A stretch of 64,000 nt of DNA from Acidimicrobiia bacterium (GTDB lineage Bacteria > Actinomycetota > Acidimicrobiia > Spongiisociales > ZC4RG35), in contig OZ253443.1 in the NCBI GenBank assembly GCA_965261135.1, positions 2,192,521-2,256,520 on the forward strand. The letters run 5' to 3'. The notes under the pieces were generated by a model. It was not told where the DNA came from, ran no database searches, and saw only the letters and a program-made list of their open reading frames with translations. Positions 6,028 to 32,905 of this stretch are shown piece by piece; the stretch's first letter is position 1, and each line of letters begins with the position of its first letter. The translations under genes were made by a program, and so were the position numbers.

Positions 6028-6084
6028 TGGCAGCTCCTTTCAAAGATCGTTAGGGATATCGTAACCCCCCGGTGAAGCCACCCC

Positions 6085-17470: not shown

Positions 17471-19014
17471 GACTCACCGTCCTGAGTCGCCGAGACGAAC
17501 ACATCCGCCAGCCGCCCCGGCGAGGGCGCCTGGTAGTCGGTGGTCTGCTCGATACGGTCGAGAATCGCTTCCACGGAGGGAGCGGTCCGGTCCAAGAGGA
17601 TGCCGGGATAGAGTCCCAGCAGCAGCACCAGAGCCGCCAAGGGCGCCAGCACCGCTATCTCTTTGGGAGAGAGGTCTACCAGCTTGCGGTTTTCGGCTCG
17701 CGTCAGGGGACCGGTGAACACCCGCTGGTAGGCCCACAACATATAGATGGCGGCCAGCACCACCCCGAAGGCGGCCACCACCGCCAAGGCCGGAAGGGAG
17801 GGGAAGCTCCCCACCAGCACCAGGAATTCTCCCACAAAGCCGTTGAGGCCGGGCAGGCCGATGGAAGCGAAGGCCATGAACAGGAAAAACCCGGCCATGA
17901 TCGGCGCCGGAGTGGCCAGGCCCCCGAAATCGCTGATCTGTTTGGTGTGGCGGCGGTCATAGAGCATCCCCACCAGCAAAAAGAGCGCCCCGGTGGTCAG
18001 ACCGTGGTTGACGTTCTGGATGACCGCGCCCTGCAGGCCGGCGGAGGTGAGGGCGAAAATCCCCAGCACCACGAACCCGAGATGGCTGACCGACGAGTAG
18101 GCAACCAGCTTCTTGAGGTCGGGCTGGACGATGGCCACTACCGCTCCGTAGATGATCCCCACCACCGCCAAGACGGCAAGGACCGGGACCAGGGAGACCG
18201 TAGCCTCGGGAAAGAGGGTGAGATTGAACCGCAGCAGTCCGTAGGTTCCCAGCTTCAGGAGCACCCCGGCCAGGAGCACCGAGCCGGCGGTGGGCGCTTC
18301 CACATGGGCGTCGGGAAGCCAGGTGTGGAAGGGAAACAGGGGCACCTTGATCGCAAACGCCAAAGCAAAGGCGCCGAATAGCCACATTTGGGCAGTGGGC
18401 GAAATATCCAGGGCCAACAGGGCCAGATAGTCGAAGCTGAGCGCTCCCTCCGGCGTCTGGGAGGCATGCATAACCGCCAGGGCGATGATCCCCGCCAGCA
18501 AAAGCGCAGAGCCGAAAGCGGTGTAGATGAAGAACTTGACCGCCGCGTACACCCGGCGCTCTCCTCCCCATACCCCGATGATGAGGTACATGGGAACCAG
18601 GATCACCTCGAAAAAGACGAAGAACAACAAGAGATCCAGGGCCAGGAAGCTCCCTATCAAACCCGTCTCCAAAAAGAGCATCGCCACCACGAACGCCTTG
18701 CGCCGGTGAGAGATGGAGTCGGAGACCGCCAGGCTGAGCGGGAACAGAATGGCAGTGAGCGCCACCATCCCCAGGGAGATCCCGTCCACGCCCAGTTGCC
18801 ATGACACTCCCCACGGCTCCCACCAGACCACCTTCTCCACCATTTGGAAGGAGGCCTCGCCCTTCTCGAAGGAGAAGAACACCGCGCCCGCCAACCCCAG
18901 CGGCGCCACCGAGAGGGCCATGCCCAACGGCAGGTGAAGCTCCCGGCGACGGGCCGGAATGAGAGAGATCACCAGCGCCCCCAGGAGCGGCGTCAGCACC
19001 AGTAGGGTCAGCAT
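17467..19014 (-). CDS. nuoM: NADH-quinone oxidoreductase subunit M
   Basis: 515 aa, Mrp-antiporter-like TM core. Position between nuoL and nuoN. Confidence 0.9.
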   Translation of the reverse strand: MLTLLVLTPLLGALVISLIPARRRELHLPLGMALSVAPLGLAGAVFFSFEKGEASFQMVEKVVWWEPWGVSWQLGVDGISLGMVALTAILFPLSLAVSDSISHRRKAFVVAMLFLETGLIGSFLALDLLLFFVFFEVILVPMYLIIGVWGGERRVYAAVKFFIYTAFGSALLLAGIIALAVMHASQTPEGALSFDYLALLALDISPTAQMWLFGAFALAFAIKVPLFPFHTWLPDAHVEAPTAGSVLLAGVLLKLGTYGLLRFNLTLFPEATVSLVPVLAVLAVVGIIYGAVVAIVQPDLKKLVAYSSVSHLGFVVLGIFALTSAGLQGAVIQNVNHGLTTGALFLLVGMLYDRRHTKQISDFGGLATPAPIMAGFFLFMAFASIGLPGLNGFVGEFLVLVGSFPSLPALAVVAAFGVVLAAIYMLWAYQRVFTGPLTRAENRKLVDLSPKEIAVLAPLAALVLLLGLYPGILLDRTAPSVEAILDRIEQTTDYQAPSPGRLADVFVSATQDGES

Positions 19015-19024
19015 CTGCGGTTAC

Positions 19025-20926
19025 TCACACTCCGCCCCTCACCAAAAGCCAGGCCAGCAGCGCCACCAGGCCCAACGCGAACCACAGCCCATACTGGCGG
19101 ATCAGCCCGCTTTGCGCAGGGCGGATCATGGTTCCCGTCGCCCTGACCAGCCGGGCCACGCCGTTAACCGCCCCGTCCACCACCTTCAAATCCAGCCGGA
19201 AGGCGGCCTGTTCGGCGAGACGACGGCCGGGAGCGACCAGCATCGCCCCATAGATGTCATCCACCCGATAGGCGTTCTCCCACCATTCCCACACTCTGCC
19301 GAATCCCGATTGGAAGCGACGCCAGGCCTCCGAGGGCCGGTGATAGGCGAAAAAGGCCATACCGGCCCCGACCGCGCCGGCCGCCACCGCCACGGCGGCC
19401 AACACCAGGACAAGGATCACCCCCTCGGGCGGATGACCGAGCGTCACTCCTTCGAAGGAAGGCTCCAGAAAGTGCTCGAGTCCCAGCCGGAAGGGAGTGT
19501 TGACCAAACCTCCAGCCACCGACAGCACGGCCAGGACGATCAGGGGAAAGGTCATGGAGCGGGGGGACTCGTGAGGGACAACCCCCTCGGGCCAGCGGGG
19601 CTTGCCCAGAAACACCATCACGAACTGACGCATCATGTAAAAGGCGGTGAGCAGGGCGGTTACCAGCCCCACGAGCCACAGCGCGGTGAACCATCCGCCC
19701 TGGTTGAACACAACGCCCAAGATTTCGTCCTTCGACCAGAATCCCGCCAGCGGAGGGAAACCGGCGATGGCCACCACCCCCACCCCCATGGTCACGAAGG
19801 TAACGGGCATGGCCTTCCGAAGACCCCCCATCTCCCCCATGTCCTGGCGGCCCCCCATGGCATGGATCACCGAACCGGCCCCGAGAAACAGGAGAGCCTT
19901 GAAAAAGGCGTGCGTCATCAGGTGGAACACGCCCGCCACATAGGCCGTCGCCCCCACCGCCAGGAACATGTAACCCAACTGGCTGATGGTGGAGTAGGCC
20001 AGCACCCGTTTTATATCGGACTGGGCAATGGCGATGGTCGCCGCCCACAAGGCGGTCAGGGCTCCCACCGCGGCCACCACCCCCGAGGCGACGGGCGCCA
20101 ACTCGAAGATCGGGGCGGAGCGGGCGATCACATACACCCCGGCGGTGACCATCGTGGCGGCGTGAATAAGCGCCGAGACCGGCGTAGGACCCTCCATGGC
20201 ATCGGGCAACCACACATAGAGAGGAATCTGCGCCGATTTCCCGATCGCCCCGGCCGCCAGCATCAGCCCGATTAGCGTGGGCGTCCACCCGGTCAATTCA
20301 TCGGCGGCCCGGTCGAACACGCCGGAGTAGGACAAAGTCCCGAAGGCGCTGAAAATCAGCATCAGGGCTATGAGAAACCCGAAATCGCCGATCCGGTTCA
20401 CCACGAACGCCTTCTTTCCCGCCGAGGCGGCGGAGGGACGGGTGAACCAAAACGAAATCAGGAGATAAGAGCAGAGGCCCACCAGTTCCCAGCCCACGAA
20501 CAACATGGCAAAGTTCCCGGCCAGCACCAGAGTGAGCATCGAGGCGGTGAACAGGTTGAGATAGGTGAAGAACCGGGAGAAACGGGGATCTCCTTGCATG
20601 TATCCCAGCGAATAGATGTGAATCAGCGAACCCACTCCGGTGACCACCAGGGTCATCAGGGCCGAGAGCGGATCCCAGGCGATCTCGAAGGATGCCCCCA
20701 CCGCCGGCATCCACTCCCACAGAATGGACTGGGAGGGATGGCCCGCCCCGGTGAAGAAGGGCACTGCGGCGACCGCCGCCACCGCAAACGCGGCCAGCGA
20801 AGCGGCGCAGGCCAGGTATCCGGCACGGGGCTCTCCCACCCACCGGCCCGCGAAGTGCAGCAGCACCGCCCCCCCGAGGGGAAGGGCGATCACCAGCCAC
20901 AGCGCCTCGGTCGGAAGCTCGATCAT
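19025..20926 (-). CDS. nuoL: NADH-quinone oxidoreductase subunit L
   Basis: 633 aa, antiporter-like core plus long C-terminal helix region. Order nuoK-L-M. Confidence 0.9.
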
Positions 20927-21234
20927 CCCCGGAGCGCCGCCAACTCATCGACCGAAGCGGTCTCTCGTCTCCTGAATATGGCGACGATGATCGCCAGTCC
21001 CACCACTACCTCGGCGGCGGCGACCACCAGTACGAAGAAGACCGCAACCTGCCCGTCAAGCACACCTGCCGCCCGACCGGCGGCCACGAAAGTGAGGTTG
21101 ACAGCGTTGAGCATCAACTCCACGCACATGAACATCACCAGGGCGTTGCGCCTGATCAGGACCCCGGTCATCCCCAGGACGAACAGGACGGCGGCCAGGG
21201 TCATATACCAGCCCGGGGTGACGGCCGGCATCAC
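20923..21234 (-). CDS. nuoK: NADH-quinone oxidoreductase subunit K
   Basis: 103 aa, 3 TM, conserved Glu residues in TM helices. Confidence 0.9.
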
Positions 21235-21764
21235 TCCTCCGCCGGCGTATCGCCGGACCGCCGATGAAATGCCAGAGCGATAGCCCCCACCGCGGCGATG
21301 GTCAGCAACAGGGCGGTCACTTCCACCCCCAGGACCCAGGTGGTGAAAAGCTCTTCTCCCAGCGCCTGGACCGTGCCGTTGGGGATCTCGGCCGCCCCCG
21401 TCGAGACGGGGGTCCAGGAGAAACGGCCCCGCGACACCAACGCCGCCGCGCCCAGGGCCACCGCGGTGGCCAGCCCGACCACCAGCTTGCGCTGGAAGGG
21501 AATGGTCTCGGAGGTGTCCTCGGTGCGGTCAACGCCGATGAACATGATCACAAAGAGAAACAGGGTCAACACCGCCCCGGCGTACACCACCACCTGCACC
21601 GCGGCTACCAGATGGGCCAGGTTGACCACGTAGATCACCGCCAGGGACACCAGGGCACCCAACAGCCCCAGGGCCGAGCGGACCGGGTTTCGAGCCAGCA
21701 CCACCGTGACGGCCCCGGCCAATGTCCCCGCCCCCATCAGCACGAAAATCACCAGTTCAACCAT
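21231..21764 (-). CDS. nuoJ: NADH-quinone oxidoreductase subunit J
   Basis: 177 aa, 5 TM, position between nuoI and nuoK. Confidence 0.85.
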
Positions 21765-22395
21765 CCGGCGAGTCCCTGGTCTCCTGATCCGGCTCGGGTG
21801 CCCAGGAAGCGGGGCCGGGAGTGGGCTGCCACATCATCTCGCCCTCATAGGCGGCCACCCCGCCCGGGGAAGTGGCTCGGAGCCACCCGTCGGCGGCGTC
21901 CAGTTCGGACAAGTCGGCGAAAGGATCCTCCCGGTATATATGGGGAACCGACCCGTCCTCTGCCATCAATAGCTCGTCCTTGGTATGGATGGCGTCGTTG
22001 CGGTTGGTCACCGACATCTCGAAAAGGTGGCTCATGGTGATGGCCTCGGTGGGACAGGCCTCCACGCACAGCCCGCAGAAGATGCAGCGCAGCATGTTGA
22101 TCTCATATACGTACCCGAAGCGCTCCCCGGGGCTCTGGGGATCATCGGGCGGGTTGTCGGCGCCTCGCACGTAGATGCAGCGGGCGGGACAGGCCCCGGC
22201 GCACAGCTCACACCCTATGCACTTCTCCATCCCGTCGGGATAGCGATTGAGAACGTGGCGGCCGTGGAACCGCACCGGCTTTTCCCGCATCTCGGAGGGA
22301 TAGCGGGTGGTGACGATGCCCCTTCCGAACAGGCCCCTCAGACCGATCGACCCGGTCACCTTGAAGCTTTTCCAGAATTCTCTCAGTATTCCCAT
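21757..22395 (-). CDS. nuoI: NADH-quinone oxidoreductase subunit I (2x[4Fe-4S] ferredoxin), with about 50-aa C-terminal extension
   Basis: Two CxxCxxCxxxCP motifs ([24 protein letters not shown]). Confidence 0.9.
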
Positions 22396-22402
22396 CTTTT
22401 CC

Positions 22403-23518
22403 TCACCCGCTGAACGGTAAACCGAAATGACGGAAGCCGATCACCACCGTGGAGATCACCAGCCACACCATCGACAAGGGAATCAGCCGCTTCCAACCCA
22501 GGGTCATCAACTGGTCGTAGCGCAACCGGGGAAGGGTGGCTCTCGTCCAGAAGAACACCACCACCAGCACGTAGCTTTTCGCCATCAGCCATACGACAGG
22601 AAGTATGGCCGAAACCCAGCCGGGCACAATCCCTTCCCAGACCGGGCCGTTCCATCCTCCCAAGAAGAGCGTGGCGGTAATAGCGCACATGGAGAAGATG
22701 TTGATGTACTCGGCCAAAAAGAACATGGCGAAGCGGATGCCCGAGTACTCGGTGTGGAATCCACCCACCAACTCCTGCTCGGCCTCCACCAAATCGAAGG
22801 GCGCCCGGTTGGTCTCCGCCAACGCCGCCAGGAAGAAGATCACAAAGGCCACGAATTGGGGAAAGATGTTCCAGCGGGGAATCAAGCTGATCACCGGGTC
22901 GAGGAAGGCGACAGATCCCGCCCAGGTTCCCGACTGTCTCTCCACGATCTCAGCCAGGGAGAGGGTTCCGCTCTCCGCGCCCGGCGCGGTGGCCGAGAAC
23001 ATCACCACCGCCACCATCGCCAAACCCATGGCCGCCTCATAAGAGATCGCCTGGGCGGTGGCCCGCACACCCCCCAGCAACGGGTATTTGGAACCCGACG
23101 ACCACCCGGCCAGCACCACCGCGTACACCGCCATGGACGACATGGCCAATATGAACAGGATCCCGATGTTGAGATCGGCCCCTTGGAGCGGCACCTGTCG
23201 GCCCGCAATCTCCAAGCCCGGACCGAGCGGGACCATCATGAAAATCAGGAAGGCGGGTATCACCGCCAGGAAAGGCGCCAGGAGATAGGCCCCCACATCC
23301 ACCCTCCGGGGAGTGATTTGCTCCTTGAAGAACAGCTTCATCCCATCAGCCAGGGTCTGGAGTATCCCCCACGGCCCCGCCCGGGCCGGGCCCACCCGGT
23401 TCTGCATATCCGCCAGAATTTTTCGCTCCAGCCAGATGTTGATAATGGTCAATACCAGCAACAGGGCGAACACCGCCACCACGCGGACGGCTATCAACAA
23501 CAGATCTACCCAGTCCAT
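22403..23518 (-). CDS. nuoH: NADH-quinone oxidoreductase subunit H
   Basis: 371 aa, 8-9 TM, NuoH/ND1 pattern. First gene of the cluster; no nuoA-G upstream. Confidence 0.9.
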
Positions 23519-23772: not shown

Positions 23773-25539
23773 TTGAATTCCGCCAGTATCCCCTCCGACC
23801 TGGATATTGCCCAAAGCGCCCAGGTCATCCCCATAACCGAGATAGCAGAACGGGTGGGGATCCAAACTGACGAACTGATCCCCTACGGCGCCGACAAGGC
23901 CAAGGTGCATCTCGACATTTTGAGCCGGATCCAGAACCGTCCCCGGGGTCGCTATGTGGACGTGACCGCCATCACCCCCACTCCCCTCGGCGAGGGCAAG
24001 ACCACCACCACCATCGGCCTTACCCAGGGCCTGGGAGCGAGGGGCCACAACGCCATGGCGTGCATTCGCCAGCCCAGCATGGGCCCTACCTTTGGCATCA
24101 AGGGCGGCGCGGCGGGGGGAGGCTACAGCCAGGTCATCCCCATGGAGGAGTTCAATCTCCATCTCACCGGGGATATACACGCCATCGGGGTTGCCCACAA
24201 TCTGGTGGCCGCCGCCATCGACGCCCGGTGGTATCACGAGGGGCGGCTCAGTGACGAACGCCTGGCCGAACGGGGGCTGAAACGCCTGGGGATCGACCAT
24301 GACCGCATCCTGTGGCGACGGGTGGTCGATGTGAACGACCGGGCGCTGCGCAATGTGGTGTTGGGGCTGGGCGGCCGGGCCGACGGGCGCCCGCGGGAGA
24401 GCGGATACGACATCACAGTGGCCAGCGAGTTGATGGCGATTCTCGCCCTGGTGGACGGGAAAGACTATGCCTCCGCCCTTCGAAACCTGCGCGAACGCTG
24501 CGGAAAGGTGGTGTTCGGCTCTTCACAGACCGGAGAGCCGCTCACCCTCGAAGACCTGGGAGCCGCGGGGGCGGTTACCGTGCTCTTGCGCGAAGCCCTC
24601 CACCCCACCCTGATGCAGACCCTGGAGGGACAGGGGGTATTCGTCCACACCGGCCCCTTCGCCAACATCGCCCACGGCAACTCGTCGGTGGTGGCCGACC
24701 GGATCGGTCTCCAACTCGCCGACTATGTGGTCACCGAGTCGGGATTCGGGGCCGACATGGGGATGGAAAAGTTCTTCAACATCAAGTGCCGGACCTCGGG
24801 ACTGATTCCGGACTGCGTTGTGCTGACCGCCACGGTGCGCGCGCTCAAAAACCAGGGAGGAGGCCCGCGGGTTACGCCGGGGAAGCCTCTTCATCCCTCC
24901 TATACCGAGGAGAACCTGCCGCTCCTGAGAGCGGGCGTGGCCAATCTCCAAGCCCACCTGGAAACCATTCGAGAGTTTGGAATTCCGGCGGTGGTGGCGG
25001 TCAACATCTTCCCCACCGATACCCAGCGGGAGATCGAATACATACAGTCGGCGGCCGTGGAAGCCGGCGCTCACTCCGCGGTCCCTGCCACTCACTGGGC
25101 GGAAGGCGGCGCCGGGGCAGGCCAACTGGCCGAGGTGGTGGAGGACGCCTGCGCCGTCTCCGGGAATTTTCGCTTCATCTACTCGCTGGAGCAACCCCTC
25201 AAAGAGAAAATCGCCCGGATCGCCCGCCAGGTGTACGGAGCGGAGGATGTCTCCTACTCCGCCCTCGCCGATCGCCAGCTCGCCCAGTACGAGCAGGCCG
25301 GCTTCGGAAACCTGCCGATCTGCATGGCCAAAACCCATCTCTCAATCAGTCACGACCCCAGCCTCCGGGGCGCTCCCCGGGGATATACCCTCCCCGTCCG
25401 GGAAGTACGGGCCTCGGTTGGCGCCGGGTTTATCTATCCGCTGGTCGGCGCGGTTCGGACCATGCCCGGGCTCTCGGTGACCCCCGCCTTCCTCAATGTG
25501 GACATCGACTCGGCGGGAGAGGTGGTGGGCCTCTTCTGA
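23773..25539 (+). CDS. fhs: Formate--tetrahydrofolate ligase
   Basis: 588 aa. N-terminal SDLDIAQSAQVIPITEIAERVGI...YGADKAKV and TPLGEGKTTTTIGL P-loop are characteristic of FTHFS. TTG start at 23773 with aggagg 7 nt upstream. Confidence 0.95.
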   Translation: MNSASIPSDLDIAQSAQVIPITEIAERVGIQTDELIPYGADKAKVHLDILSRIQNRPRGRYVDVTAITPTPLGEGKTTTTIGLTQGLGARGHNAMACIRQPSMGPTFGIKGGAAGGGYSQVIPMEEFNLHLTGDIHAIGVAHNLVAAAIDARWYHEGRLSDERLAERGLKRLGIDHDRILWRRVVDVNDRALRNVVLGLGGRADGRPRESGYDITVASELMAILALVDGKDYASALRNLRERCGKVVFGSSQTGEPLTLEDLGAAGAVTVLLREALHPTLMQTLEGQGVFVHTGPFANIAHGNSSVVADRIGLQLADYVVTESGFGADMGMEKFFNIKCRTSGLIPDCVVLTATVRALKNQGGGPRVTPGKPLHPSYTEENLPLLRAGVANLQAHLETIREFGIPAVVAVNIFPTDTQREIEYIQSAAVEAGAHSAVPATHWAEGGAGAGQLAEVVEDACAVSGNFRFIYSLEQPLKEKIARIARQVYGAEDVSYSALADRQLAQYEQAGFGNLPICMAKTHLSISHDPSLRGAPRGYTLPVREVRASVGAGFIYPLVGAVRTMPGLSVTPAFLNVDIDSAGEVVGLF

Positions 25540-25901: not shown

Positions 25902-26071
25902 AATGCGCTCCTCTCAGAAGTTATTCACGTGATTGCGACCAAATTTATCAACAATCGAATCCAAGCCCTCAACCCCAAAATCCCGGCCTTTTGTCACCAG
26001 TCCGTTTTACAGATTGCTAAAATATCGCCAACGGAACAAAGTTCGCCCGTACAACTCAAGGAGAGTCAACT

Positions 26072-27973
26072 ATGGGAAAAAAGACCCGGCTGACCCATCC
26101 GCTGGTGCGCCAGAACGGCGTACTTCGACAAGCCACGTGGGCCGAGGCTCTTGCCACTGCGGCCCGCGGCCTGGGTGAGGTGCGCGACGCGCACGGCGGA
26201 GAAGCGATAGGGCTGTTTTCCTGCTCCAAAGCCACCAACGAGACCAACTTCTTGGCACAGAAGTTCGCACGGGTGGTGCTGGGCACCAATAACGTAGATT
26301 CCTGTAACCGGACCTGACACGCTCCCAGCGTCGCCGGTCTGGCGGCTGTTTTCGGAGCGGGAGGGGGAACCAGTTCCTATCAGGAGATGGATGACGCCGA
26401 TGTGGTGATCCTGTGGGGGTCGAACGCCCGGGCCGCCCATCCCATCTTTTTTCACCGGGTCATCCGGGCGGTCCGCCGCGGCGCCCGCCTGTTCTGCGTG
26501 GATCCTCGCCGAAGCGAGTCGGCGGAGTGGGCCGACCTGTGGCTGGGTATCGATGTCGGATCCGATATCGCCCTGTCCAACGCGGTGGCCCGCGAGATCC
26601 TGGCATGCGGGTTGGAGAATCGGGAGTTCATCGAGCGCGCCACCCTCAATTTCGAGGAATACGCCCAGAGCGTGGAGGGGTGGACCCTGGAGCGGGGCGA
26701 GGAGATAACCGGAGTTCCCGCCCATGCCATCCGCTCTCTGGCCCATGCCTATGCCAAGGCCGACCGCGCCCAGTTGTGCTGGACGCTGGGGATAACCGAG
26801 CACCACAACGCCACCGACAATGTGCTGGCTCTGATCAACCTGGCGCTGCTCTGCGGACATGTGGGTCGCTACGGGTCGGGACTGGTGCCCCTCCGGGGCC
26901 AGAACAATGTACAGGGAGGCGGCGACATGGGAGCGATCCCCAACAAGCTTCCGGGTTTCCAAGATGTGGAGTCAGACGAACTCCGCACCCCGTTCGAAGC
27001 CACCTGGAAGGCCCCCGTCCCTCCCCGCAAGGGTCTTCACCTCACCCAGATGTTCGAGGCGATGGAAGATGGTACTCTGCGCGCCCTGTACGTGATCGGA
27101 GAGAATCCCGCCCAATCCGAGGCCGATGTCAAAAGGGCCCGCCACCTGATGGAAGGCCTGGAATTCATGGTGGTTCAGGACATTTTCCTTACCCGCACCG
27201 CCCAAATGGCCGACGTTGTGTTCCCTGCCGCCGCCGACTGGTGCGAGGCGGAGGGAACGGTGACCTCGAGCGAACGGCGGGTCCAGCGGGTGCGCCCCGC
27301 CCTCCAACCTCCCGGGGAGGCCCGCACCGACTCCTCCATCATCTCCTCCCTGGCGGCCAGCATGGGACATGGTTGGGGCATGCCTTCCGCCGAGGAGGTG
27401 TGGGACGAACTGCGCAGCCTCTCTCCCATGCACCGGGGTATGGCCTACCGTCGCCTGGAAGACCACGGCGGCTTACAATGGCCCTGCTTCGACGAAGACC
27501 ATCCCGGTGAACTCTTCCTCCACTCCCGCCTGTGGGCAGACCCCCCAGTCGGCCCCCTCGCTCCCTTCTTCCCTGTGGAGTGGTTCCCGCCGGTCGACCG
27601 GCTGACCGAGGATTATCCCACCCGGCTCACCACCGGCCGCCACCTCGACTCCTACAACACGGGAGTGCAGAGCGGCGCCACCGACTCCCCGCTCCGGATC
27701 GGGGGAACCCTCGACATCTCACCCGAGGACTCCTCTACCTGGGCGATTTTGGAGGGAGAAGAAGTGCGGGTCACCTCTCGGAGAGGGTCGATCACCGTCC
27801 CCGCCCGGGTGGACGAGAGCCTCCGCCCCGGTTTGGTCTTTATGTCCGTTCACTTTCCCGAGCAGGCCGACATCAACCAACTGACCATCGAGGCCTGGGA
27901 TCCGAAGAGTGGCACCGCGGAGTTCAAGGCGACTGCCGTGCGGGTGGAAAAAGCACCGGCGCCGGTCGGGTAG
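26072..27973 (+). CDS. fdhA: Formate dehydrogenase catalytic (molybdo/tungstopterin) subunit; selenoprotein with in-frame UGA = Sec at codon 83 (26318-26320); lacks the usual N-terminal 4Fe-4S domain
   Basis: RBS aaggagag before the ATG at 26072. ...[41 protein letters not shown] aligns with E. coli FdhF ...[29 protein letters not shown]. ORF 26387..27973 is in the same frame (315 nt = 105 codons downstream). GGUCUG loop 18 nt after the UGA, as in the fdhF SECIS. Confidence 0.9.
26321..26365 (+). ncRNA. SECIS-like stem-loop immediately 3' of the UGA (cis element within the fdhA mRNA)
   Basis: UGA CAC GCU CCC AGC GUC GCC GGUCUG GCG GCU G ... GGAGCG. The outer stem CGCUCC/GGAGCG encloses an apical GCC-GGUCU-GGC hairpin. 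The GGUCUG apical motif and its 18-nt spacing from the UGA are the same as in E. coli fdhF. Confidence 0.6.
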
Positions 27974-27996
27974 CGGCAAGCAAACGACACTGACAG

Positions 27997-29814
27997 ATGG
28001 ACCTTCGCTTTACAGAGTCCCAGCCCACCGCTGCTGAGCGGGAGGCAGTGGAGTCGGTCACCGGCCCAGGCGGCATCGAAAGCCACCGCCGGGTGCGGAC
28101 CGCCGCCAACCTGCGTATCTTCATGACCGGACGACAGAGCGTGGTGGATCGACGCCACCTCCTGCTGCCCGCCCTCGAGACCGTGCAATCCGAGATAGGG
28201 TGGGTCTCGGAAGGCGCCTTGATGCACATCTGTCGGGTTTTGTCCGTCCCTCCGGCCGAGGCGTGGGGGGTGGCTACCTTCTACTCCCTGATATCGGTCG
28301 ATCCCTCCCCGTCCGAGGTATGGCACATCTGCGACGATATTGTCTGCCGCCGCGCCGGCGCCCTGGAACTTATCGAGGGACTGGAAGCCGGGGGAGCGGA
28401 AGCTCCGAACGCCCGATGGGCGCGCTCGCCCTGTCTCGGACAATGCGACCTGGCGCCGGCGGCCTACATCCAGCGGGCCGGGGAAGACGACCTGGTAATG
28501 GTGGAAGTAGGCGCCTCCGAGCTGGGCGAATGGCCCAACAACACTTCTCTCTCGATGGCCAACGGCCGTTCGGCCAAACCCGCCATTCCCCAGTCCGGCC
28601 AACCCCATCTGCGGCTGCTGCGGCGGGTGGAGGTGGTGGATCCCGAATGCCTCGACTCCTACCTGGCCGCCGGTGGATACCAAGCCCTGGAAAAGGCGGT
28701 GGAGATGGGGCCGGAAGCGGTGAACGGAGAGATCAAGACCTCGGGCCTCCGGGGTCGGGGAGGAGCGGCGTTTCCCGCCTGGATCAAGTGGGAAGCAGTG
28801 GCCAACTCCCCCGAGCCGGTCCGCTATCTGATCTGCAACGCCGACGAGTCTGAGCCGGGCACCTTCAAGGACCGGGTTCTGATGGAGGACGATCCCTTCT
28901 CGGTAATTGAATCCATGACCCTCGCCGGATACGCGATCGGCGCCCGCCGAGGGTATCTCTACATCCGGGGGGAATATCCCCTGGCCACCGAACGGCTGCT
29001 GCGGGCGATGGACTCGGCGCGTCAGCGGGGCCTATTGGGAGACACCTCCGGAACCGGTGTCTCTTTCGATATCGAACTCCGCCGCGGCCAGGGCGCCTAC
29101 ATCTGCGGTGAGGAAACCGCCCTGATGAACTCCATCGAGGGTTTCCGGGGAGAGCCGCGCAACAAGCCCCCCTTCCCCACTGTCTCGGGGCTGTTCGGAA
29201 AGCCGACCGTCATCAACAACGTGGAGACCCTGTGCAATGTCCTCGACATCGTCACCGAGGGCGGAGAGGCCTTTGCCTCGATGGGAACCGCTCAGTCCAC
29301 CGGACCCAAACTATTCTGTCTATCGGGATCGGTCAACCGGCCAGGCGTCTACGAGGTGGAATTCGGCGCCACTCTCAGGGAGTTGATCGACCTGGCGGGA
29401 GGTTTGCCCGAGGGTCTGGAACCAAGGGCGATCCTGCTGGGCGGCGCGGCCGGTTCGTTCGTGCTCCCCGACCTCCTCGACATGCCACTCACTTTCGAGG
29501 CTGCCGTCGAGGCCGGGGTTTCGCTCGGATCGGGAGTGATAATGGTGTTCGACCAGCACACCGACTTCGGAGACATCCTCGCCCGCATCGCCGCCTTTTT
29601 TCGGGATGAGACCTGCGGGCAGTGCGTGCCCTGCCGGGTTGGTACTGTACGTATCGAAGAAGCGCTGGCGCGAATCCGCCGACGCCCCCGACCCGGAGAC
29701 CTGGAACTGATCACCGAAATCGACCTGGCCATGCGGGACGCATCTATCTGCGGCTTGGGACACACCGCCGCCATTGCCCTGCGATCCGCCCTCGACCTGG
29801 GACTGCTGAAATGA
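27997..29814 (+). CDS. NAD(P)-linked formate dehydrogenase diaphorase subunit: fused NuoE-like (2Fe-2S thioredoxin-fold) + NuoF-like (FMN/NADH-binding, 4Fe-4S) protein
   Basis: 605 aa. N-terminal NuoE-like Cys ligands (...CRVLSVP...). The NuoF-like domain has the GRGGAAFP glycine-rich FMN/NADH loop and a C-terminal CGQCVPCRVG 4Fe-4S motif. Confidence 0.85.
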   Translation: MDLRFTESQPTAAEREAVESVTGPGGIESHRRVRTAANLRIFMTGRQSVVDRRHLLLPALETVQSEIGWVSEGALMHICRVLSVPPAEAWGVATFYSLISVDPSPSEVWHICDDIVCRRAGALELIEGLEAGGAEAPNARWARSPCLGQCDLAPAAYIQRAGEDDLVMVEVGASELGEWPNNTSLSMANGRSAKPAIPQSGQPHLRLLRRVEVVDPECLDSYLAAGGYQALEKAVEMGPEAVNGEIKTSGLRGRGGAAFPAWIKWEAVANSPEPVRYLICNADESEPGTFKDRVLMEDDPFSVIESMTLAGYAIGARRGYLYIRGEYPLATERLLRAMDSARQRGLLGDTSGTGVSFDIELRRGQGAYICGEETALMNSIEGFRGEPRNKPPFPTVSGLFGKPTVINNVETLCNVLDIVTEGGEAFASMGTAQSTGPKLFCLSGSVNRPGVYEVEFGATLRELIDLAGGLPEGLEPRAILLGGAAGSFVLPDLLDMPLTFEAAVEAGVSLGSGVIMVFDQHTDFGDILARIAAFFRDETCGQCVPCRVGTVRIEEALARIRRRPRPGDLELITEIDLAMRDASICGLGHTAAIALRSALDLGLLK

Positions 29815-30809
29815 CCCGACCCAAAACAACCACCGCTCCTCACCAAACCGTCCAGTTGACCATTGACGGCGCACCGATGGAGGTCAAGGCGGACGCCACC
29901 CTTCTGGAAGCCTGTGAACAAATGGGGACCGCAATTCCCACCCTTTGTTATCTGGAGACCCTCACCCCGGTCAACGTGTGCCGGATCTGTGTGGTGGAGG
30001 TAGAACGGAGCCGCACACTGGTACCCGCCTGCTCGCGGATCGTCGAGGAGGGCATGGTGGTGAATACCGACTCGGAGCGGGTCCGGCACAGTCGGAAGAT
30101 GGTCCTGGAGTTCCTGGGCTCCTCGGTGGATCTTTCGCTGGCCGATGCCGAGGTCGGCGGGTGGATGGAAGAGTACGACGCCGACCCGACCCGCTACGGA
30201 GCCCCCGCCGAGCCCACCGCGGCCGGGGAACGGGACGGGAGGCATCCGGGGCATCATAATTCGGTCAGCGGTAAAACCGCTGAGGGAGTACACCAGCCCA
30301 CCAAGGTGGACAACACCCTCTATGTCCGCGACTATTCCCGCTGCATCCTCTGCTACAAGTGCGTGGAGGCGTGCGGGATCGATGCCCAGGGCACTTACGC
30401 CATAGCGGTGGCGGGCCGGGGCTTCGACGCCCGGATCTCCACCGAGATGGACCTTCCCCTGGGCGACGGCGCCTGTGTGTTCTGTGGCAACTGCATAGGA
30501 GTGTGCCCGACCGGCGCCCTTATGTTCCGCTCGGAATGGGAACTCCGGAAGGCGGATCTATGGGATCCCGAAGCGCAGTCTGTGACCCGGACGGTTTGCT
30601 CCTATTGCGGAGTCGGCTGCAACCTGGAGTTGCACACCCAGGACAACCGCATTGTCAAGGTCACCTCTCCCCAGGATCACGAGGTCACCAGCGGCCATCT
30701 GTGCATCAAGGGCCGGTTCGGCTACGACTACGTGCAGAGCCTGGGCGATGTGGACCAAAGCTCGATCGACGAGGTGCTGGCCGCCGCCCGCCGTCCCAAC
30801 CCCGAATAG
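29811..30809 (+). CDS. NuoG-N-terminal-like Fe-S subunit (2Fe-2S + 4Fe-4S clusters) carrying at its C-terminus the MopB-type 4Fe-4S domain that normally opens the FDH catalytic subunit
   Basis: ATG at 29811 overlaps the previous stop (ATGA). CRICVVEV... 2Fe-2S; CILCYKCVEACG and CVFCGNCIGVCP ferredoxin motifs; C-terminal CSYCGVGCNLELHTQDNRIVKV...GHLCIKGRFGYDY matches FdhF residues 8-55 (CPYCASGC...LCLKGYYGWDF). Confidence 0.8.
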   Translation: MTRPKTTTAPHQTVQLTIDGAPMEVKADATLLEACEQMGTAIPTLCYLETLTPVNVCRICVVEVERSRTLVPACSRIVEEGMVVNTDSERVRHSRKMVLEFLGSSVDLSLADAEVGGWMEEYDADPTRYGAPAEPTAAGERDGRHPGHHNSVSGKTAEGVHQPTKVDNTLYVRDYSRCILCYKCVEACGIDAQGTYAIAVAGRGFDARISTEMDLPLGDGACVFCGNCIGVCPTGALMFRSEWELRKADLWDPEAQSVTRTVCSYCGVGCNLELHTQDNRIVKVTSPQDHEVTSGHLCIKGRFGYDYVQSLGDVDQSSIDEVLAAARRPNPE

Positions 30810-30818
30810 CCGCGGCGC

Positions 30819-31661
30819 TCAGGCCGGAGCGGGGGCTTTTCGACGGAGGGAATCACGCAGCCGCGATCCTGTCAGGGCTACGAAGAACAGGGACACCGAG
30901 ATCAACACGATGGTGGCCGAGGCGGCCGTGGAAAAGCGATAGCTGATCACCAGACCACTGATCACCGAGAAGACCGCCAAAGCGGCAGAGACCGCCATCA
31001 CCAGCACCACCCGCCGAACCAGGATAATGGCCGTGGCCGGAGGCCCGATCAGCAGACCGAACACCAGGATAGCGCCTACTCCCTGAAACAGGACGACCAT
31101 CGTACCCGTGATGAGCGCCAACAGTGTCAGGTGAGCTATCCGAGGACGAAGGTCCATCATCTCGGCTTTGGCCTCATTGAAGGCGAGGGCCAGAAACGAC
31201 CGATACATCACAACCGATACCGCCATGGCAACCACCAGGCTCACCGCTTCCAACAGGATGCCGCCGCCGGTCACCCCCAGCAGGTCACCGAATAGAACCG
31301 CGGTGATCGAGACCGAAAAGCTGGAGGTCAGTGAAATCACCACCACTCCGAGGGACAGCATGCCCACGAACAGCAGCCCGATCCCGATGTCGGCGCTGAG
31401 CTTGGTGTGTTGGTGAACCTGATTGATCCCCCATACCATCACCACCCCAGCCACCAGCGCCCCCCACAGCGGATTGACTCCCGCCAGCAGGGCGATAGCG
31501 ACACCGGGAATAATCCCATGGGCAACCGCATCGCCCATGAAGGACATCCCCCGGATAACCACCCAGGTACCCACCACCGAGGTAAGTATCCCGGCCAGTA
31601 TCCCGGCCAGTAACGCCCGCTGCTGAAAAGCGAATTCAAACGGCTCCAACAGCCAGTCCAT
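30819..31661 (-). CDS. znuB: Metal (zinc/manganese) ABC transporter permease, ABC-3 family (ZnuB-like)
   Basis: 280 aa, 8-9 TM, ABC-3 permease pattern. Divergent from a Fur-family regulator gene across a Fur-type box. Confidence 0.8.
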   Translation of the reverse strand: MDWLLEPFEFAFQQRALLAGILAGILTSVVGTWVVIRGMSFMGDAVAHGIIPGVAIALLAGVNPLWGALVAGVVMVWGINQVHQHTKLSADIGIGLLFVGMLSLGVVVISLTSSFSVSITAVLFGDLLGVTGGGILLEAVSLVVAMAVSVVMYRSFLALAFNEAKAEMMDLRPRIAHLTLLALITGTMVVLFQGVGAILVFGLLIGPPATAIILVRRVVLVMAVSAALAVFSVISGLVISYRFSTAASATIVLISVSLFFVALTGSRLRDSLRRKAPAPA

Positions 31662-31702
31662 ACCATCTACTTTCTCGAATCGGATAAATATGCATCAGCG
31701 AT

Positions 31703-31717
31703 TGATAATCATTATCA
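31703..31717. promoter_or_regulatory. Fur-family (Zur) operator: perfect 7-1-7 palindrome TGATAATCATTATCA in the znuB / zur-znuC divergent promoter
   Basis: Read directly. Sits in the AT-rich 66-bp intergenic region between the znuB start (31661, minus) and the zur start (31728, plus). Matches the GATAAT-n-ATTATC Fur/Zur box architecture. Confidence 0.75.
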
Positions 31718-31727
31718 TATATGAACC

Positions 31728-32165
31728 ATGTTTGGACTCCACTCCAAAGTAGAAGAGAGTCTTCGCTCGCAGGGCATGCGCTATACCACCAACCGCAGGG
31801 CGCTCGTCGAGGCGCTGGACAACACCGCAGGCCCTCTCACCGTCGAAGAGCTCTACCAGGTTACGGAGGCGCGCATCCCTTTTTCCTCCATCTATAGGGA
31901 CGTTCGCGTGTTGACCGAATCGCAGGTGCTCGCCTCTCACCACAGCGCCGATCGGTCCAACCGCTTCGAATTGGCCGAATGGCTGACGGGACATCATCAC
32001 CACTTGGTGTGCATGCAGTGCATGGCCATCTCCGACATCTCCCTGACCCCTGAAACCGAGTACCGCCTCTCCCGGTTGGCGGAGAACGCAGCCACCGACA
32101 CCGGGTATCGGGTAGCCGGCCACACCCTGGAGATCGAGGGCCTGTGCCCGAACTGCCAGACATGA
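31728..32165 (+). CDS. zur: Fur-family transcriptional regulator (zinc uptake regulator, Zur-like)
   Basis: 145 aa. HHHHLVCMQC and CPNC metal-binding Cys pairs. N-terminal winged-helix DNA-binding region. Co-located with znuB/znuC and a Fur box. Confidence 0.8.
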   Translation: MFGLHSKVEESLRSQGMRYTTNRRALVEALDNTAGPLTVEELYQVTEARIPFSSIYRDVRVLTESQVLASHHSADRSNRFELAEWLTGHHHHLVCMQCMAISDISLTPETEYRLSRLAENAATDTGYRVAGHTLEIEGLCPNCQT

Positions 32166-32905
32166 GAGTACCCGAGCAGGCCATCGAGAACGCCATCGAA
32201 GCGGAAGGACTGGAGCTCCGCTACGGCTCGAACATAGTCTTGGAACCCTCATCTTTCACCGCGCCCATGGGAGCAATCACCGCCCTGATCGGGCCGAACG
32301 GTGCCGGAAAGTCCACCCTGCTTCACTCCCTGGTCGGCTTGATAAGCCCCTCTGGCGGACGGATCACCGTCTTGGGAACCTCCCCTCAAAGAGCCCGGAA
32401 ACAGGTTGCCTATGTCATCCAGTCCAAGCAGATCAACCAGTCTTTGCCGCTCACGGTGGCCCAGGTTGTGGCCATGGGCCGCTATCCGAACCGGGGAATG
32501 ATCCGACCATTGAGGATCGATGACCGCGCCCGGGTTCAAGAGGCCATGGAGAGGATGGAAATCACCGATTTGTCCAACCGCCACCTCACTGAGCTGTCGG
32601 GTGGACAACGACAGCGGGTTTTCATGGCTCAGGGAATCGCCCAGGATCATCTTGTGATGCTTCTGGACGAGCCACTCACCGGCCTCGATATCATCTCGGC
32701 GGAGGCAGTGGACAGAACCCTCCACCAAGAGAAGGCCCACGGCTGCGCGGTTTTGGTATCCACCCACGACCTGGGAGAAGCCGGCAGCGCCGATCATGTG
32801 CTGCTGCTGGGGGAGAGGAGAGTGATCAGCGGGCCCCCTCCGGAGGTGCTGACCACCGACAACCTCCTTTCGGCTTTCGGGGCCGGGCTGATGCACATCC
32901 ACTGA
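32144..32905 (+). CDS. znuC: Metal ABC transporter ATP-binding protein (ZnuC-like)
   Basis: Walker A GPNGAGKST, signature LSGGQRQRV, Walker B LLDEPLTGLD. More likely start is the ATG at 32162 forming an ATGA overlap with the zur stop. Confidence 0.85.
   Translation: MPELPDMRVPEQAIENAIEAEGLELRYGSNIVLEPSSFTAPMGAITALIGPNGAGKSTLLHSLVGLISPSGGRITVLGTSPQRARKQVAYVIQSKQINQSLPLTVAQVVAMGRYPNRGMIRPLRIDDRARVQEAMERMEITDLSNRHLTELSGGQRQRVFMAQGIAQDHLVMLLDEPLTGLDIISAEAVDRTLHQEKAHGCAVLVSTHDLGEAGSADHVLLLGERRVISGPPPEVLTTDNLLSAFGAGLMHIH

What the first reader, a model, noticed from the sequence alone, without database searches (positions are those of the whole stretch)
26072..30809. Domain-permuted, split formate dehydrogenase: the N-terminal [4Fe-4S] MopB domain is relocated to the C-terminus of a NuoG-N-like subunit encoded two genes downstream; NuoE and NuoF are fused
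The catalytic subunit starts (with its own RBS) exactly where FdhF residue about 58 aligns (THPLVRQNGVLRQATWAEAL... versus TPMIRRQRGGKLEPVSWDEAL...). It therefore lacks the CxxCxxxC...C-x-K-G cluster domain. That domain (CSYCGVGCNLELHTQDNRIVKV...GHLCIKGRFGYDY) instead ends the 332-aa protein at 29811-30809, after 2Fe-2S and two ferredoxin-type clusters (the NuoG/HylA-like N-module). Between them lies a single 605-aa NuoE+NuoF fusion. Gene order is catalytic core -> EF fusion -> Fe-S wire + MopB cap, i.e. a circular permutation at operon level of the usual FdsG-B-A / NuoE-F-G arrangement. I do not know of this as a described architecture. It bears on how the electron wire is assembled non-covalently.
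Basis: partly seen in the sequence, partly recalled or inferred. Interest (0 to 1): 0.6.

Follow-up and report, generated by a model that had tools for sequence, protein, structure and literature searches.

The report
Three-gene split selenocysteine formate dehydrogenase
This is a real, intact operon for a soluble NAD-linked formate dehydrogenase whose catalytic selenoprotein has lost its own iron-sulfur "cap" to a separately encoded electron-wire subunit, but the same layout is common in many bacteria and was already noted in an actinomycete in 2020, so it is a neglected enzyme type, not a new one.

Summary
Three + strand genes encode:
- A (26072-27973), a 633-codon molybdopterin core with no Fe4S4 domain.
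- B (27997-29814), a 605-aa NuoE+NuoF fusion.
- C (29811-30809), a 332-aa protein with one [2Fe-2S] site, two ferredoxin-type [4Fe-4S] sites and the MopB Fe4S4 cap at its C-terminus.

NCBIfam TIGR01591 is tiled exactly: profile positions 1-50 match C and 50-672 match A.

A has an in-frame TGA at codon 82, followed by a covarying SECIS hairpin, so it is a selenoprotein. C has lost the His-ligated [4Fe-4S] site.

"Domain-permuted" overstates the case. The cap follows the ferredoxin module just as it does in fused FdsA. The chain is simply cut after the cap, and the gene order is A-B-C.

The layout is not rare:
- All 80 best genome loci, from at least 8 phyla, show it. Order A-B-C holds in all 61 loci with enough flank, and TGA is present in 63 of 63.
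- Cys-type versions, followed by fdhD, were confirmed in Thermopolyspora and Streptomyces.
- Rohwerder et al. 2020 (PMC7176365, Suppl. Fig. S4) described the same three-subunit FDH3 (640/614/316 aa, U80) in Actinomycetospora chiangmaiensis, with proteomic and selenium-dependence evidence.

No structure, purified enzyme or dedicated family model was found. Verdict: new member of a known kind, modest interest.

The parts
26060..26065 (+). Shine-Dalgarno-like GGAGAG, 6 nt before the ATG of gene A
   Evidence: Read directly from the sequence.
26072..27973 (+). Gene A: catalytic Mo/W-bis-MGD subunit, 633 codons including Sec82. It has Molybdopterin and Molydop_binding domains and no Fe-S domain. 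Active-site residues are U82, H83 and R275.
   Evidence: TIGR01591 profile positions 50-672 match A residues 3-625 (650.9 bits, cutoff 666.25). A contains 8 scattered Cys and no cluster motif.
26315..26317 (+). In-frame TGA that encodes selenocysteine 82
   Evidence: Motif [12 protein letters not shown]. TGA sits at this position in 63 of 63 related loci where it is covered.
26320..26359 (+). SECIS hairpin. The upper stem-loop is 26330-26346 (GUCGCC-GGUCU-GGCGGC).
   Evidence: Predicted fold. The loop is GGUCU in 62 of 64 sequences. Compensatory pairs are CG/GC (56/8) and GC/AU (61/3). The z-score of the single sequence alone is not significant (-0.54).
27997..29814 (+). Gene B: NuoE+NuoF fusion (605 aa). 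The NuoE-like [2Fe-2S] part is roughly nt 28147-28476. The NuoF-like FMN/NADH/[4Fe-4S] part is roughly nt 28618-29796.
   Evidence: Motifs: GRGGAAFP at 253, NADESEPG at 281, CGQCVPC at 540. Candidate NuoE-type Cys ligands are at 112, 117, 146 and 150.
29811..30809 (+). Gene C: Fe-S wire subunit (332 aa). Ligands: [2Fe-2S] C46/57/60/74; two ferredoxin-type [4Fe-4S] C178/181/184/188 and C222/225/228/232; cap cluster C263/266/270/298 plus K300.
   Evidence: All listed Cys and K300 are invariant in alignment A1. The ATGA overlap with the stop codon of B was read.
30579..30740 (+). MopB Fe4S4 cap domain, encoded at the 3' end of gene C (aa 257-310)
   Evidence: PF04879, 75.3 bits. TIGR01591 profile positions 1-50 match C residues 261-310, 58.6 bits.
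30204..30281 (+). Cysteine-free insertion in C with invariant R141, D142, R144, G147, H148, H149. It lies in the cysteine-free segment that stands where the His-ligated [4Fe-4S] site lies in FdsA. It is present in the Sec-type clade and absent from Cys-type relatives.
23773..25539 (+). fhs (formate-tetrahydrofolate ligase), immediately upstream. A likely functional partner; co-transcription has not been shown.
   Evidence: PF01268, 809.6 bits. fhs lies next to the operon in 16 of 80 related loci.

Best explanation
Genes A, B and C encode a soluble, cytoplasmic, three-subunit, selenocysteine-containing formate dehydrogenase. It is most likely NAD+-linked and of the 'FDH3' type noted in Actinomycetospora chiangmaiensis.

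Proposed mechanism:
1. Formate is oxidised at the Mo (or W) bis-MGD centre of A. The metal ligand is Sec82, with His83 and Arg275 as the usual catalytic partners.
2. The proximal [4Fe-4S] cluster and the Lys (K300) that normally relays electrons from the pterin are not in A. They sit in the C-terminal cap domain of C, so the first electron-transfer step must cross a subunit interface.
3. Electrons then run through the two ferredoxin-type [4Fe-4S] clusters and the [2Fe-2S] cluster of C.
4. They continue to the NuoF-type [4Fe-4S] cluster and FMN of B, and finally to NAD+. The NuoE-type [2Fe-2S] cluster of B is an off-path, N1a-like centre.
5. The His-ligated [4Fe-4S] cluster of FdsA is absent. 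In R. capsulatus FDH that cluster lies off the main path, at the dimer interface.

Together with the adjacent fhs gene, the enzyme probably completes tetrahydrofolate-linked C1 oxidation: formyl-THF to formate to CO2, yielding ATP and NADH.

Evolutionarily, this is an FdsA-like alpha subunit cut cleanly after the cap domain, with the core gene placed first in the operon.

Shown here: gene structure, domains, ligands, UGA and SECIS, conservation and synteny. Inferred: complex formation, the electron path, NAD+ specificity and the physiological direction.
For: Domains and motifs:
- TIGR01591 is tiled 1-50 by C and 50-672 by A.
- C and A are collinear with R. capsulatus FdsA residues 21-304 and 308-937.
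- All cluster ligands and K300 are invariant in the family.

Selenocysteine:
- TGA in 63 of 63 loci and a covarying SECIS hairpin.

Conservation:
- Gene order A-B-C holds in every one of the 61 loci (of the 80 best) with enough flank, across Actinomycetota, Chloroflexota, Acidobacteriota, Planctomycetota, Gemmatimonadota and others.
- Cys-type A-B-C-FdhD operons occur in cultured Thermopolyspora flexuosa and Streptomyces samsunensis.
- fdhD lies within the flank in 36 of 80 loci, and fhs in 16 of 80.

Literature:
- In RcFDH the His-ligated cluster A4 is off the bis-MGD-to-FMN pathway (PMC7171172).
- FDH3 of A. chiangmaiensis has subunits of 640 aa (U80), 614 aa (NuoE/F fusion) and 316 aa (separate FeS protein). 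It was detected in the proteome and rose 2-3 fold on 2-HIBA, and formate removal there depended on selenium (PMC7176365).

Non-bifurcating:
- B lacks the extra Fe-S domains of bifurcating HydB/HylB-type subunits. Only the NADH_4Fe-4S domain is found.
Against: - No enzyme of this family has been purified or solved. The PDB search found only fused FdsA-type chains for C.
- NAD+ versus NADP+ specificity and the physiological direction are not determined by sequence here.
- No fdhD, selA/B/D or tRNA-Sec gene was found in the 64-kb window, so maturation and Sec machinery must lie elsewhere in the genome.
- In several Chloroflexota loci, unrelated genes separate A from B-C, so co-transcription is not universal.
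Confidence: 0.85

Rival explanations
1. The complex is the same, but its physiological role is CO2 reduction. NAD(P)H-driven formate synthesis would feed Fhs, as in the reductive glycine pathway or the methyl branch of the Wood-Ljungdahl pathway.
For: fhs lies directly upstream on the same strand and is linked to the operon in 16 of 80 loci. FdsABG-type enzymes are reversible: RcFDH reduces CO2 with NADH (PMC7171172). From general knowledge, Sec/W-type FDHs are typical CO2 reductases in acetogens.
Against: The genomic context is an aerobic-type heterotroph: complex I membrane genes, a peptide ABC transporter and housekeeping genes. No other Wood-Ljungdahl or glycine-cleavage genes were seen next to the operon. 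The only physiological data for this enzyme type show formate removal during aerobic growth (PMC7176365). From general knowledge, NADH is thermodynamically a poor reductant for CO2.
Confidence: 0.1
2. The B-C module, which is NuoE/F/G-like, feeds formate electrons into a complex-I-like membrane arm. That arm would be encoded by the divergently placed nuoHIJKLMN cluster, which lacks nuoA-G locally. The assembly would be a formate:quinone oxidoreductase.
For: nuoH-N (16016-23518, minus strand) starts about 250 nt from fhs, with no nuoA-G upstream. B and C supply exactly the N-module-like parts.
Against: No NuoB, NuoC, NuoD or NuoA (the Q-module) is nearby. The nuoH adjacency is shared only with the closest relative, L001, and with none of the other 79 loci. 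The family occurs in many contexts without nuo genes. C ends with the MopB cap that must face A, not NuoI.
Confidence: 0.03
3. The split is an artefact or decay product. Either A is a pseudogene interrupted by a stop codon, or a misassembly separated the cap from the core.
For: A contains an in-frame TGA, and gene callers report only a 528-aa fragment.
Against: TGA sits at the catalytic Sec position, with a covarying SECIS hairpin, in 63 of 63 loci. The same cut point and gene order appear in independent assemblies, including complete genomes and isolates. The gene order A-B-C cannot be turned into a fused gene by any frameshift.
Confidence: 0.01

Closest known systems
FDH3 (FdhA3-FdhB3-FdhC3) of Actinomycetospora chiangmaiensis DSM 45062 (Rohwerder et al. 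2020, PMC7176365, Suppl. Fig. S4)
   Same: The composition is the same: a 640-aa alpha subunit with Sec at U80 and no FeS domain (here 633 aa, U82), a 614-aa NuoE+NuoF-fused beta subunit (here 605 aa), and a separate 316-aa FeS gamma subunit homologous to the N-terminus of the AM1 and H16 alpha subunits (here 332 aa). It is predicted to be cytoplasmic and NAD+-reducing.
   Different: The host class differs (Acidimicrobiia versus Pseudonocardiales). In the window, fhs is adjacent. The paper does not spell out that the MopB cap cluster itself lies on the gamma subunit, that the His-ligated cluster is lost, or how widespread the type is. Direct sequence comparison was not possible with these tools.
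FdsABG(D) NAD+-dependent FDH of Rhodobacter capsulatus and Cupriavidus necator (6tg9; PMC7171172)
   Same: The same cofactor chain and the same domains in the same N-to-C order. C aligns to FdsA 21-304 and A to FdsA 308-937. It has a NuoF-like and a NuoE-like diaphorase.
   Different: FdsA is one 958-aa chain with Cys386. Here the chain is cut after the cap, and the active-site residue is Sec. The His-ligated dimer-interface cluster A4 is absent here. NuoE and NuoF are fused here. Gene order is core, then EF fusion, then wire, instead of fdsGBA. No fdsD is present.
Tungsten FDH1 of Methylorubrum extorquens AM1 (7e5z, 7vw6)
   Same: The beta subunit is a NuoE-NuoF fusion. The NuoF part of B (219-593) aligns to 7e5z_B 190-550 of a 572-aa chain. 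The supplement of PMC7176365 reports 35% identity between the A. chiangmaiensis beta subunit FdhB3 and the AM1 beta subunit, over 93% cover.
   Different: The AM1 alpha subunit is a single fused chain (989-995 aa) with Cys, and the metal is W.
FdhF-type enzymes with separate NuoG/HydA-like partners (Thermoanaerobacter kivui HDCR FdhF, 7qv7; clostridial FdhF-HylABC)
   Same: A is most similar in sequence to this FdhF group (500.8 bits to 7qv7_S). The catalytic subunit and the Fe-S wire subunit are separate polypeptides.
   Different: In those systems the cut lies before the cap, so FdhF keeps its own CxxCxxxC...C-x-K cluster. A starts at residue 62 of 7qv7_S. Here the cut lies after the cap, so the proximal cluster and the relay Lys are supplied in trans. 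The statement about HylABC rests on general knowledge and was not tested here.
Formylmethanofuran dehydrogenase FwdB/FwdD
   Same: A precedent for fission of a MopB-family catalytic subunit into two genes. [quoted passage not shown]
   Different: That fission is at the C-terminal Molydop_binding domain, not at the N-terminal Fe4S4 cap. The reaction and partners also differ.

Membership tests
Mo/W-bis-MGD formate dehydrogenase alpha subunit (NCBIfam TIGR01591, FdhF/FdsA type) | Molybdopterin and Molydop_binding domains | tested here: met
   PF00384 at 220.5 bits and PF01568 at 85 bits in A.
Mo/W-bis-MGD formate dehydrogenase alpha subunit (NCBIfam TIGR01591, FdhF/FdsA type) | Active-site Sec/Cys-His dyad and the conserved Arg in RGQNNVQG | tested here: met
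   U82-H83 and R275. These align with the FdhF/FdhH active-site region.
Mo/W-bis-MGD formate dehydrogenase alpha subunit (NCBIfam TIGR01591, FdhF/FdsA type) | N-terminal CxxCxxxC...CxK [4Fe-4S] cap in the same polypeptide | tested here: not met
   A has no PF04879 hit and no Cys motif. The cap is residues 257-310 of C.
Mo/W-bis-MGD formate dehydrogenase alpha subunit (NCBIfam TIGR01591, FdhF/FdsA type) | Whole-protein score at or above the curated cutoff (666.25 bits) | tested here: not met
   A scores 650.9 bits over profile positions 50-672. C adds 58.6 bits over positions 1-50. Only the two pieces together would pass.
Complex-I-like NAD+-dependent FDH (FdsABG / FDH1 type) | NuoF-like subunit with FMN, NADH and [4Fe-4S] sites, plus a NuoE-like [2Fe-2S] site | tested here: met
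   PF01512, PF10589 and PF01257 in B, with the motifs GRGGAAFP, NADESEPG and CGQCVPC.
Complex-I-like NAD+-dependent FDH (FdsABG / FDH1 type) | NuoG-N-like Fe-S module covalently fused to the MopB catalytic core | tested here: not met
   The module and the core are separate genes, with B between them.
Complex-I-like NAD+-dependent FDH (FdsABG / FDH1 type) | His-ligated [4Fe-4S] cluster (HxxxCxxCxxxxxC; cluster A4 in RcFDH) | tested here: not met
   No PF10588 (NADH-G_4Fe-4S_3) hit. C has no Cys between residues 75 and 177 in any family member.
Complex-I-like NAD+-dependent FDH (FdsABG / FDH1 type) | Formate:NAD+ oxidoreductase activity | not testable with these tools
   Requires enzymology.
FDH3-type three-subunit split FDH (A. 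chiangmaiensis, PMC7176365) | Alpha subunit of about 640 aa without an FeS domain, with Sec near residue 80 | tested here: met
   A is 633 aa with U82, against 640 aa with U80 in the paper.
FDH3-type three-subunit split FDH (A. chiangmaiensis, PMC7176365) | Beta subunit of about 614 aa that is a NuoE+NuoF fusion, and a gamma subunit of about 316 aa that is a separate FeS protein homologous to the FdsA N-terminus | tested here: met
   B is 605 aa and C is 332 aa.
FDH3-type three-subunit split FDH (A. chiangmaiensis, PMC7176365) | Direct sequence homology to WP_084681743.1, WP_018332443.1 and WP_018332444.1 | not testable with these tools
   These accessions cannot be fetched here. Relatives from the same family, Pseudonocardiaceae (Saccharopolyspora, Kutzneria, Pseudonocardia), are 63-64% identical to A.
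Bacterial selenoprotein gene | In-frame UGA at a catalytic position, followed by a SECIS hairpin with a GGUC-type apical loop | tested here: met
   TGA in 63 of 63 loci. The hairpin starts 15 nt after the first base of the UGA. The loop is GGUCU in 62 of 64 sequences, and two stem pairs show compensatory changes.
Bacterial selenoprotein gene | selA, selB, selD and tRNA-Sec present in the genome | tested here: inconclusive
   No tRNA genes are in the window. The rest of the genome is not available.

The most novel reading that the evidence does not exclude
The cut after the cap could be functional rather than neutral. It would make the Sec/Mo-containing core a separately matured, detachable module that docks onto a pre-assembled flavin/Fe-S B-C module. 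A failed UGA read-through would then yield only an 81-aa peptide, instead of a cluster-loaded dead-end fragment.

Because gene callers break A at the UGA and name C only '2Fe-2S cluster-binding protein', this could also be a major, systematically under-counted formate-oxidising enzyme of aerobic soil and marine bacteria. It appears to have spread between phyla: cross-phylum identities of 62-71% in A and 60-72% in C equal or exceed within-phylum identities.
Probability: 0.25. Interest if true: 0.5.

Novelty: new member of a known kind. Interest (0 to 1): 0.3.

Why it matters
If the model is right, this is a natural case in which the first electron-transfer step of a MopB enzyme (pterin, then Lys, then the proximal [4Fe-4S] cluster) crosses a protein-protein interface. 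That is useful for understanding how these enzymes are assembled and matured, and for engineering modular, O2-exposed, Sec-containing FDHs for CO2/formate conversion.

There is also a practical point for annotation. The catalytic gene is routinely truncated at the Sec codon, and no NCBIfam equivalog model passes for any of the three subunits. Metagenomic surveys may therefore under-report this widespread formate dehydrogenase. For this window itself the finding is ordinary: an intact copy of a common, already noted operon.

Tried and rejected
- **AlphaFold2 model of C.** Built with the 17-sequence alignment A1, it gave mean pLDDT 49.6 and pTM 0.44. That is too poor for fold search or interface analysis, so it was not used.
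- **Multimer or fused C+A prediction.** Not attempted.
- **Rfam scan of the whole window.** No family reached the gathering score, so the SECIS evidence rests on my own covariation counts. The fold z-score of the single SECIS sequence is not significant (-0.54).
- **Promoter and terminator scan.** Nothing informative. The only notable 'terminator' is the SECIS hairpin.
- **50%-identity representative search with C.** Mostly metagenomic fragments. It showed only that fused relatives first appear at about 37-45% identity.
- **Literature searches.** Searches for split or permuted FDH terms, Molybdop_Fe4S4 and Streptomyces NAD-FDH returned nothing relevant. The precedent came from the search on NuoEF, selenocysteine and Actinobacteria.
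- **Upstream extension or frameshift.** Rejected, because of the TAA 17 codons upstream and the absence of any cap-like sequence elsewhere in the window.
- **Electron-bifurcating enzyme.** Considered unlikely, because B has no extra ferredoxin domains.
Full report
**1. Observation**

The region holds three co-oriented genes on the + strand.

Gene A runs from ATG 26072 to the stop at 27971-27973. GGAGAG lies 6 nt before the ATG, and an in-frame TAA lies 17 codons upstream. The ORF listing reports A as two pieces, 26072-26317 and 26387-27973. The reason is that codon 82 (26315-26317) is TGA, inside the motif [18 protein letters not shown], which is the catalytic selenocysteine site of formate dehydrogenases. 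Pfam finds only Molybdopterin (aa 6-428) and Molydop_binding (518-621) in A, and no Molybdop_Fe4S4. A has 8 scattered cysteines and no cluster motif.

Gene B (27997-29814, 605 aa) is a single ORF carrying 2Fe-2S_thioredx, Complex1_51K, SLBB and NADH_4Fe-4S. It is therefore a NuoE-NuoF fusion.

Gene C (29811-30809, 332 aa) starts at an ATG that overlaps the stop codon of B. It contains:
- Fer2_4, with C46/57/60/74.
- Two ferredoxin motifs, C178/181/184/188 and C222/225/228/232.
- Molybdop_Fe4S4 at the C-terminus, with C263/266/270/298 and K300 in the motif LCIKGRFG.

**2. The two halves fit together exactly**

- NCBIfam TIGR01591 (Fdh-alpha, 672 positions) is matched at positions 1-50 by C residues 261-310 (58.6 bits). 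Positions 50-672 are matched by A residues 3-625 (650.9 bits, just below the 666.25 cutoff).
- Against solved structures, C 7-309 aligns to R. capsulatus FdsA (6tg9_A) 21-304, and A 6-631 aligns to FdsA 308-937. A also aligns to E. coli FdhH from residue 61 and to T. kivui HDCR FdhF from residue 62.
- In fused relatives the sequence runs ...KGR[FY]GYDF..KDRLTTP[LM]I. This passes straight from the end of the C-type cap into the N-terminus of A (TRLTHPLV).

So nothing is permuted at the protein level. The cap follows the ferredoxin module just as it does in FdsA. An FdsA-like chain has been cut cleanly after the cap, and the core gene now lies first in the operon. By contrast, FdhF-type enzymes such as HDCR FdhF (7qv7) retain their own cap. 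From general knowledge, their Fe-S wire subunits are separate polypeptides, so there the cut lies before the cap.

**3.

*Selenocysteine.* In 63 of 63 related loci where the position is covered, the codon is TGA. Fifteen nucleotides after the first base of the UGA there is a hairpin, GUCGCC-GGUCU-GGCGGC (26330-26346).
- Its loop is GGUCU in 62 of 64 sequences.
- Its stem shows compensatory changes, CG/GC in 56/8 and GC/AU in 61/3 sequences. Some of these changes alter the encoded amino acids (VAGLA to VTGLV), yet the pairing is kept.

This is good evidence for a working SECIS. Gene callers miss it: in the protein database, the Sec-type homologues appear as 528-aa fragments starting at the internal Met106.

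*Loss of the His-ligated cluster.* C has no NADH-G_4Fe-4S_3 domain. The HxxxCxxCxxxxxC ligands of the His-coordinated [4Fe-4S] cluster are all replaced, and no family member has a cysteine between residues 75 and 177. In the R. capsulatus enzyme this cluster (A4; His117, Cys121/124/130) lies outside the bis-MGD-to-FMN pathway, at the FdsA-FdsA dimer interface (PMC7171172). Its loss therefore should not break the wire. It does suggest that the FdsA-type electronic link between protomers is absent.

Sec-type C proteins carry a roughly 24-aa cysteine-free insertion with invariant RDxR...GHH, within the cysteine-free segment that stands in this cluster's place. Cys-type relatives lack the insertion. 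Its role is unknown.

**4. Distribution**

- A search with C returned more than 120 homologues at 68-100% identity. All but one are 314-339 aa long (one is 392 aa), and all have the same domain set. They come mostly from Acidimicrobiia MAGs and carry only generic names such as '2Fe-2S iron-sulfur cluster-binding protein', 'HndD' or 'YjgC'.
- In one genome per species (GTDB), at least 577 stretches encode relatives. Only the best 80 were inspected. They come from Actinomycetota (Acidimicrobiia, Nitriliruptoria, Gaiellales, Thermoleophilia, Streptosporangiales), Chloroflexota, Acidobacteriota, Planctomycetota, Gemmatimonadota, Rokubacteria, Eisenbacteria and Binatia.
- In all 61 of those loci with enough flank, the order is A, then B, then C. 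A starts at the same position in each.
- In 79 of the 80 loci C stops 0-42 residues after the end of its alignment to window C. The exception is L075.
- Identities to the window proteins are 62-72% for A (91% in the near-identical L001) and 60-72% for C across phyla. The nearest fused relatives are only 27-41% identical in the A part and 34-37% in the C part. This points to one coherent clade and, by inference, a single fission event.
- A Cys-type branch occurs in cultured actinomycetes, including Streptomyces, Saccharopolyspora, Nonomuraea, Thermopolyspora, Kutzneria and Nocardiopsis. It accounts for 92 of the top 120 hits to A. These are 627-679 aa long, have the same truncated N-terminus, and some are named 'NAD-dependent formate dehydrogenase catalytic subunit'.
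- In Thermopolyspora flexuosa and Streptomyces samsunensis the called genes are A (641 and 649 aa), B (615 and 612 aa), C (292 and 290 aa, ending in Molybdop_Fe4S4) and FdhD.
- fdhD lies within the flank in 36 of the 80 loci, but not in this window.
- fhs is adjacent in 16 of 80 loci. It is on the same strand in Acidimicrobiia and divergent in other Actinomycetota.

**5. Literature**

Most searches found nothing. One paper describes this enzyme type: Rohwerder et al. 2020 (PMC7176365). For Actinomycetospora chiangmaiensis DSM 45062 it reports 'FDH3', made of:
- FdhA3, 640 aa, with Sec at U80. [quoted passage not shown]
- FdhB3, 614 aa, with N- and C-terminal domains resembling NuoE and NuoF, like the AM1 beta subunit.
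- FdhC3, 316 aa, 'a separate but homologous' protein that replaces the N-terminal iron-sulfur domain of those alpha subunits.

All three proteins were detected in the proteome and rose 2.2-3.1-fold on 2-HIBA. Formate removal by the strain depended on selenium, and the authors call FDH3 a cytoplasmic NAD+-dependent FDH.

Sizes, Sec position and domain descriptions match A, B and C. I could not fetch the accessions for a direct alignment, so membership is an inference, although a strong one.

The NuoE-NuoF fusion is also known from the Methylorubrum FDH1 beta subunit. B 219-593 aligns to 7e5z_B 190-550, and the supplement says the same.

No solved structure has the split. No NCBIfam equivalog model passes for A, B or C.

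**6. How it most likely works**

1. Formate is oxidised at the Mo/W-bis-MGD centre in A (U82, H83, R275).
2. Electrons pass across the A-C interface, via K300, to the cap [4Fe-4S] cluster of C.
3. They then run through the two ferredoxin-type clusters and the [2Fe-2S] cluster of C.
4. They reach the NuoF-type [4Fe-4S] cluster and FMN of B, and finally NAD+. The NuoE-type [2Fe-2S] cluster is an off-path centre.

This follows from the RcFDH pathway (bis-MGD to FMN, with A4 and G7 off-path; PMC7171172) and from the invariant ligands. Complex formation, nucleotide specificity and direction are all inferred.

With fhs next door, the likely role is the last step of tetrahydrofolate-linked C1 oxidation. 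The reverse role, CO2 reduction feeding Fhs, cannot be excluded (about 10%).

A link to the neighbouring nuoH-N cluster is unlikely. That adjacency is shared only with the closest relative.

An artefact or pseudogene is excluded by conservation.

**7. Verdict**

The window holds a new, Sec-type, Acidimicrobiia member of a known but barely studied and poorly annotated FDH type.

Still open:
- Whether the in-trans cap has a functional rationale.
- How the complex is matured.
- Why the operon is so similar across phyla.

Interest is about 0.3.

Noticed in passing
window 16016-23518 (- strand): A nuoH-I-J-K-L-M-N cluster begins at nuoH (22403-23518). There is no nuoA-G upstream. The DNA upstream of nuoH is the divergent fhs-FDH operon. 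This adjacency is shared only with the closest relative, L001, so it is probably a split nuo operon and not a functional link.
   Followed up: partly
window 23773-25539; loci L001, L003, L005, L007, L011-L013, L017, L018, L021, L027, L034, L038, L039, L050, L078: Formate-tetrahydrofolate ligase (fhs) lies next to the FDH operon in 16 of 80 related loci. It is on the same strand in Acidimicrobiia and divergent in other Actinomycetota. This suggests coupling to THF-linked C1 metabolism.
   Followed up: partly
window 30204-30281 (C residues ~132-157): Sec-type C proteins carry a cysteine-free insertion of about 24 aa with invariant R141, D142, R144, G147, H148 and H149. It lies in the segment that stands where the lost His-ligated [4Fe-4S] site would be. 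Cys-type relatives (Thermopolyspora, Streptomyces) lack it. Its function is unknown.
   Followed up: partly
window 30819-32905; L081 11752-13926: A Zn/Mn-type ABC transporter (ABC-3 permease and ATPase) with a Fur-family regulator sits directly downstream of the FDH operon in the window. A ZnuA / ABC_tran / ABC-3 set also follows the operon in Thermopolyspora flexuosa. This may be coincidence.
   Followed up: no
L015, L031, L033, L063, L069 (between A and B): In several Chloroflexota loci, 0.7-2.2 kb of apparently unrelated ORFs separates gene A from B-C, judged from their translations only. Examples are a methyltransferase-like ORF, a large protease-like ORF and a small conserved ORF. The three genes are therefore not always contiguous.
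   Followed up: partly
L075 7001-7975 and downstream: In this Dehalococcoidia MAG the ORF for C runs on for 256 more codons after the cap domain. It could be a fusion or a missed stop. I did not examine it.
   Followed up: no
loci L001-L080: Cross-phylum identities equal or exceed those to other Actinomycetota. For example, A is 67-69% identical in Acidobacteria, Anaerolineaceae and Dehalococcoidia MAGs, against 62-63% in Trebonia and other Actinomycetes. This hints at inter-phylum transfer of the operon. No tree was built, and MAG taxonomy labels may be imprecise.
   Followed up: no
window 6001-8000; ORF 6642-7961 (+): A stretch of lower G+C (0.53 versus about 0.63) holds a 439-aa ORF with an HD-domain, dGTPase-like motif (HNRLTHSLKV...HDLGHPPFGH). 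It may be horizontally acquired. No family search was run on it.
   Followed up: no
protein database hits P0271-P0282: Public gene calls for the Sec-type catalytic subunit are systematically truncated to 528 aa, starting at the internal Met106 after the UGA. The Sec-type enzyme is therefore fragmented in metagenome annotations.
   Followed up: yes
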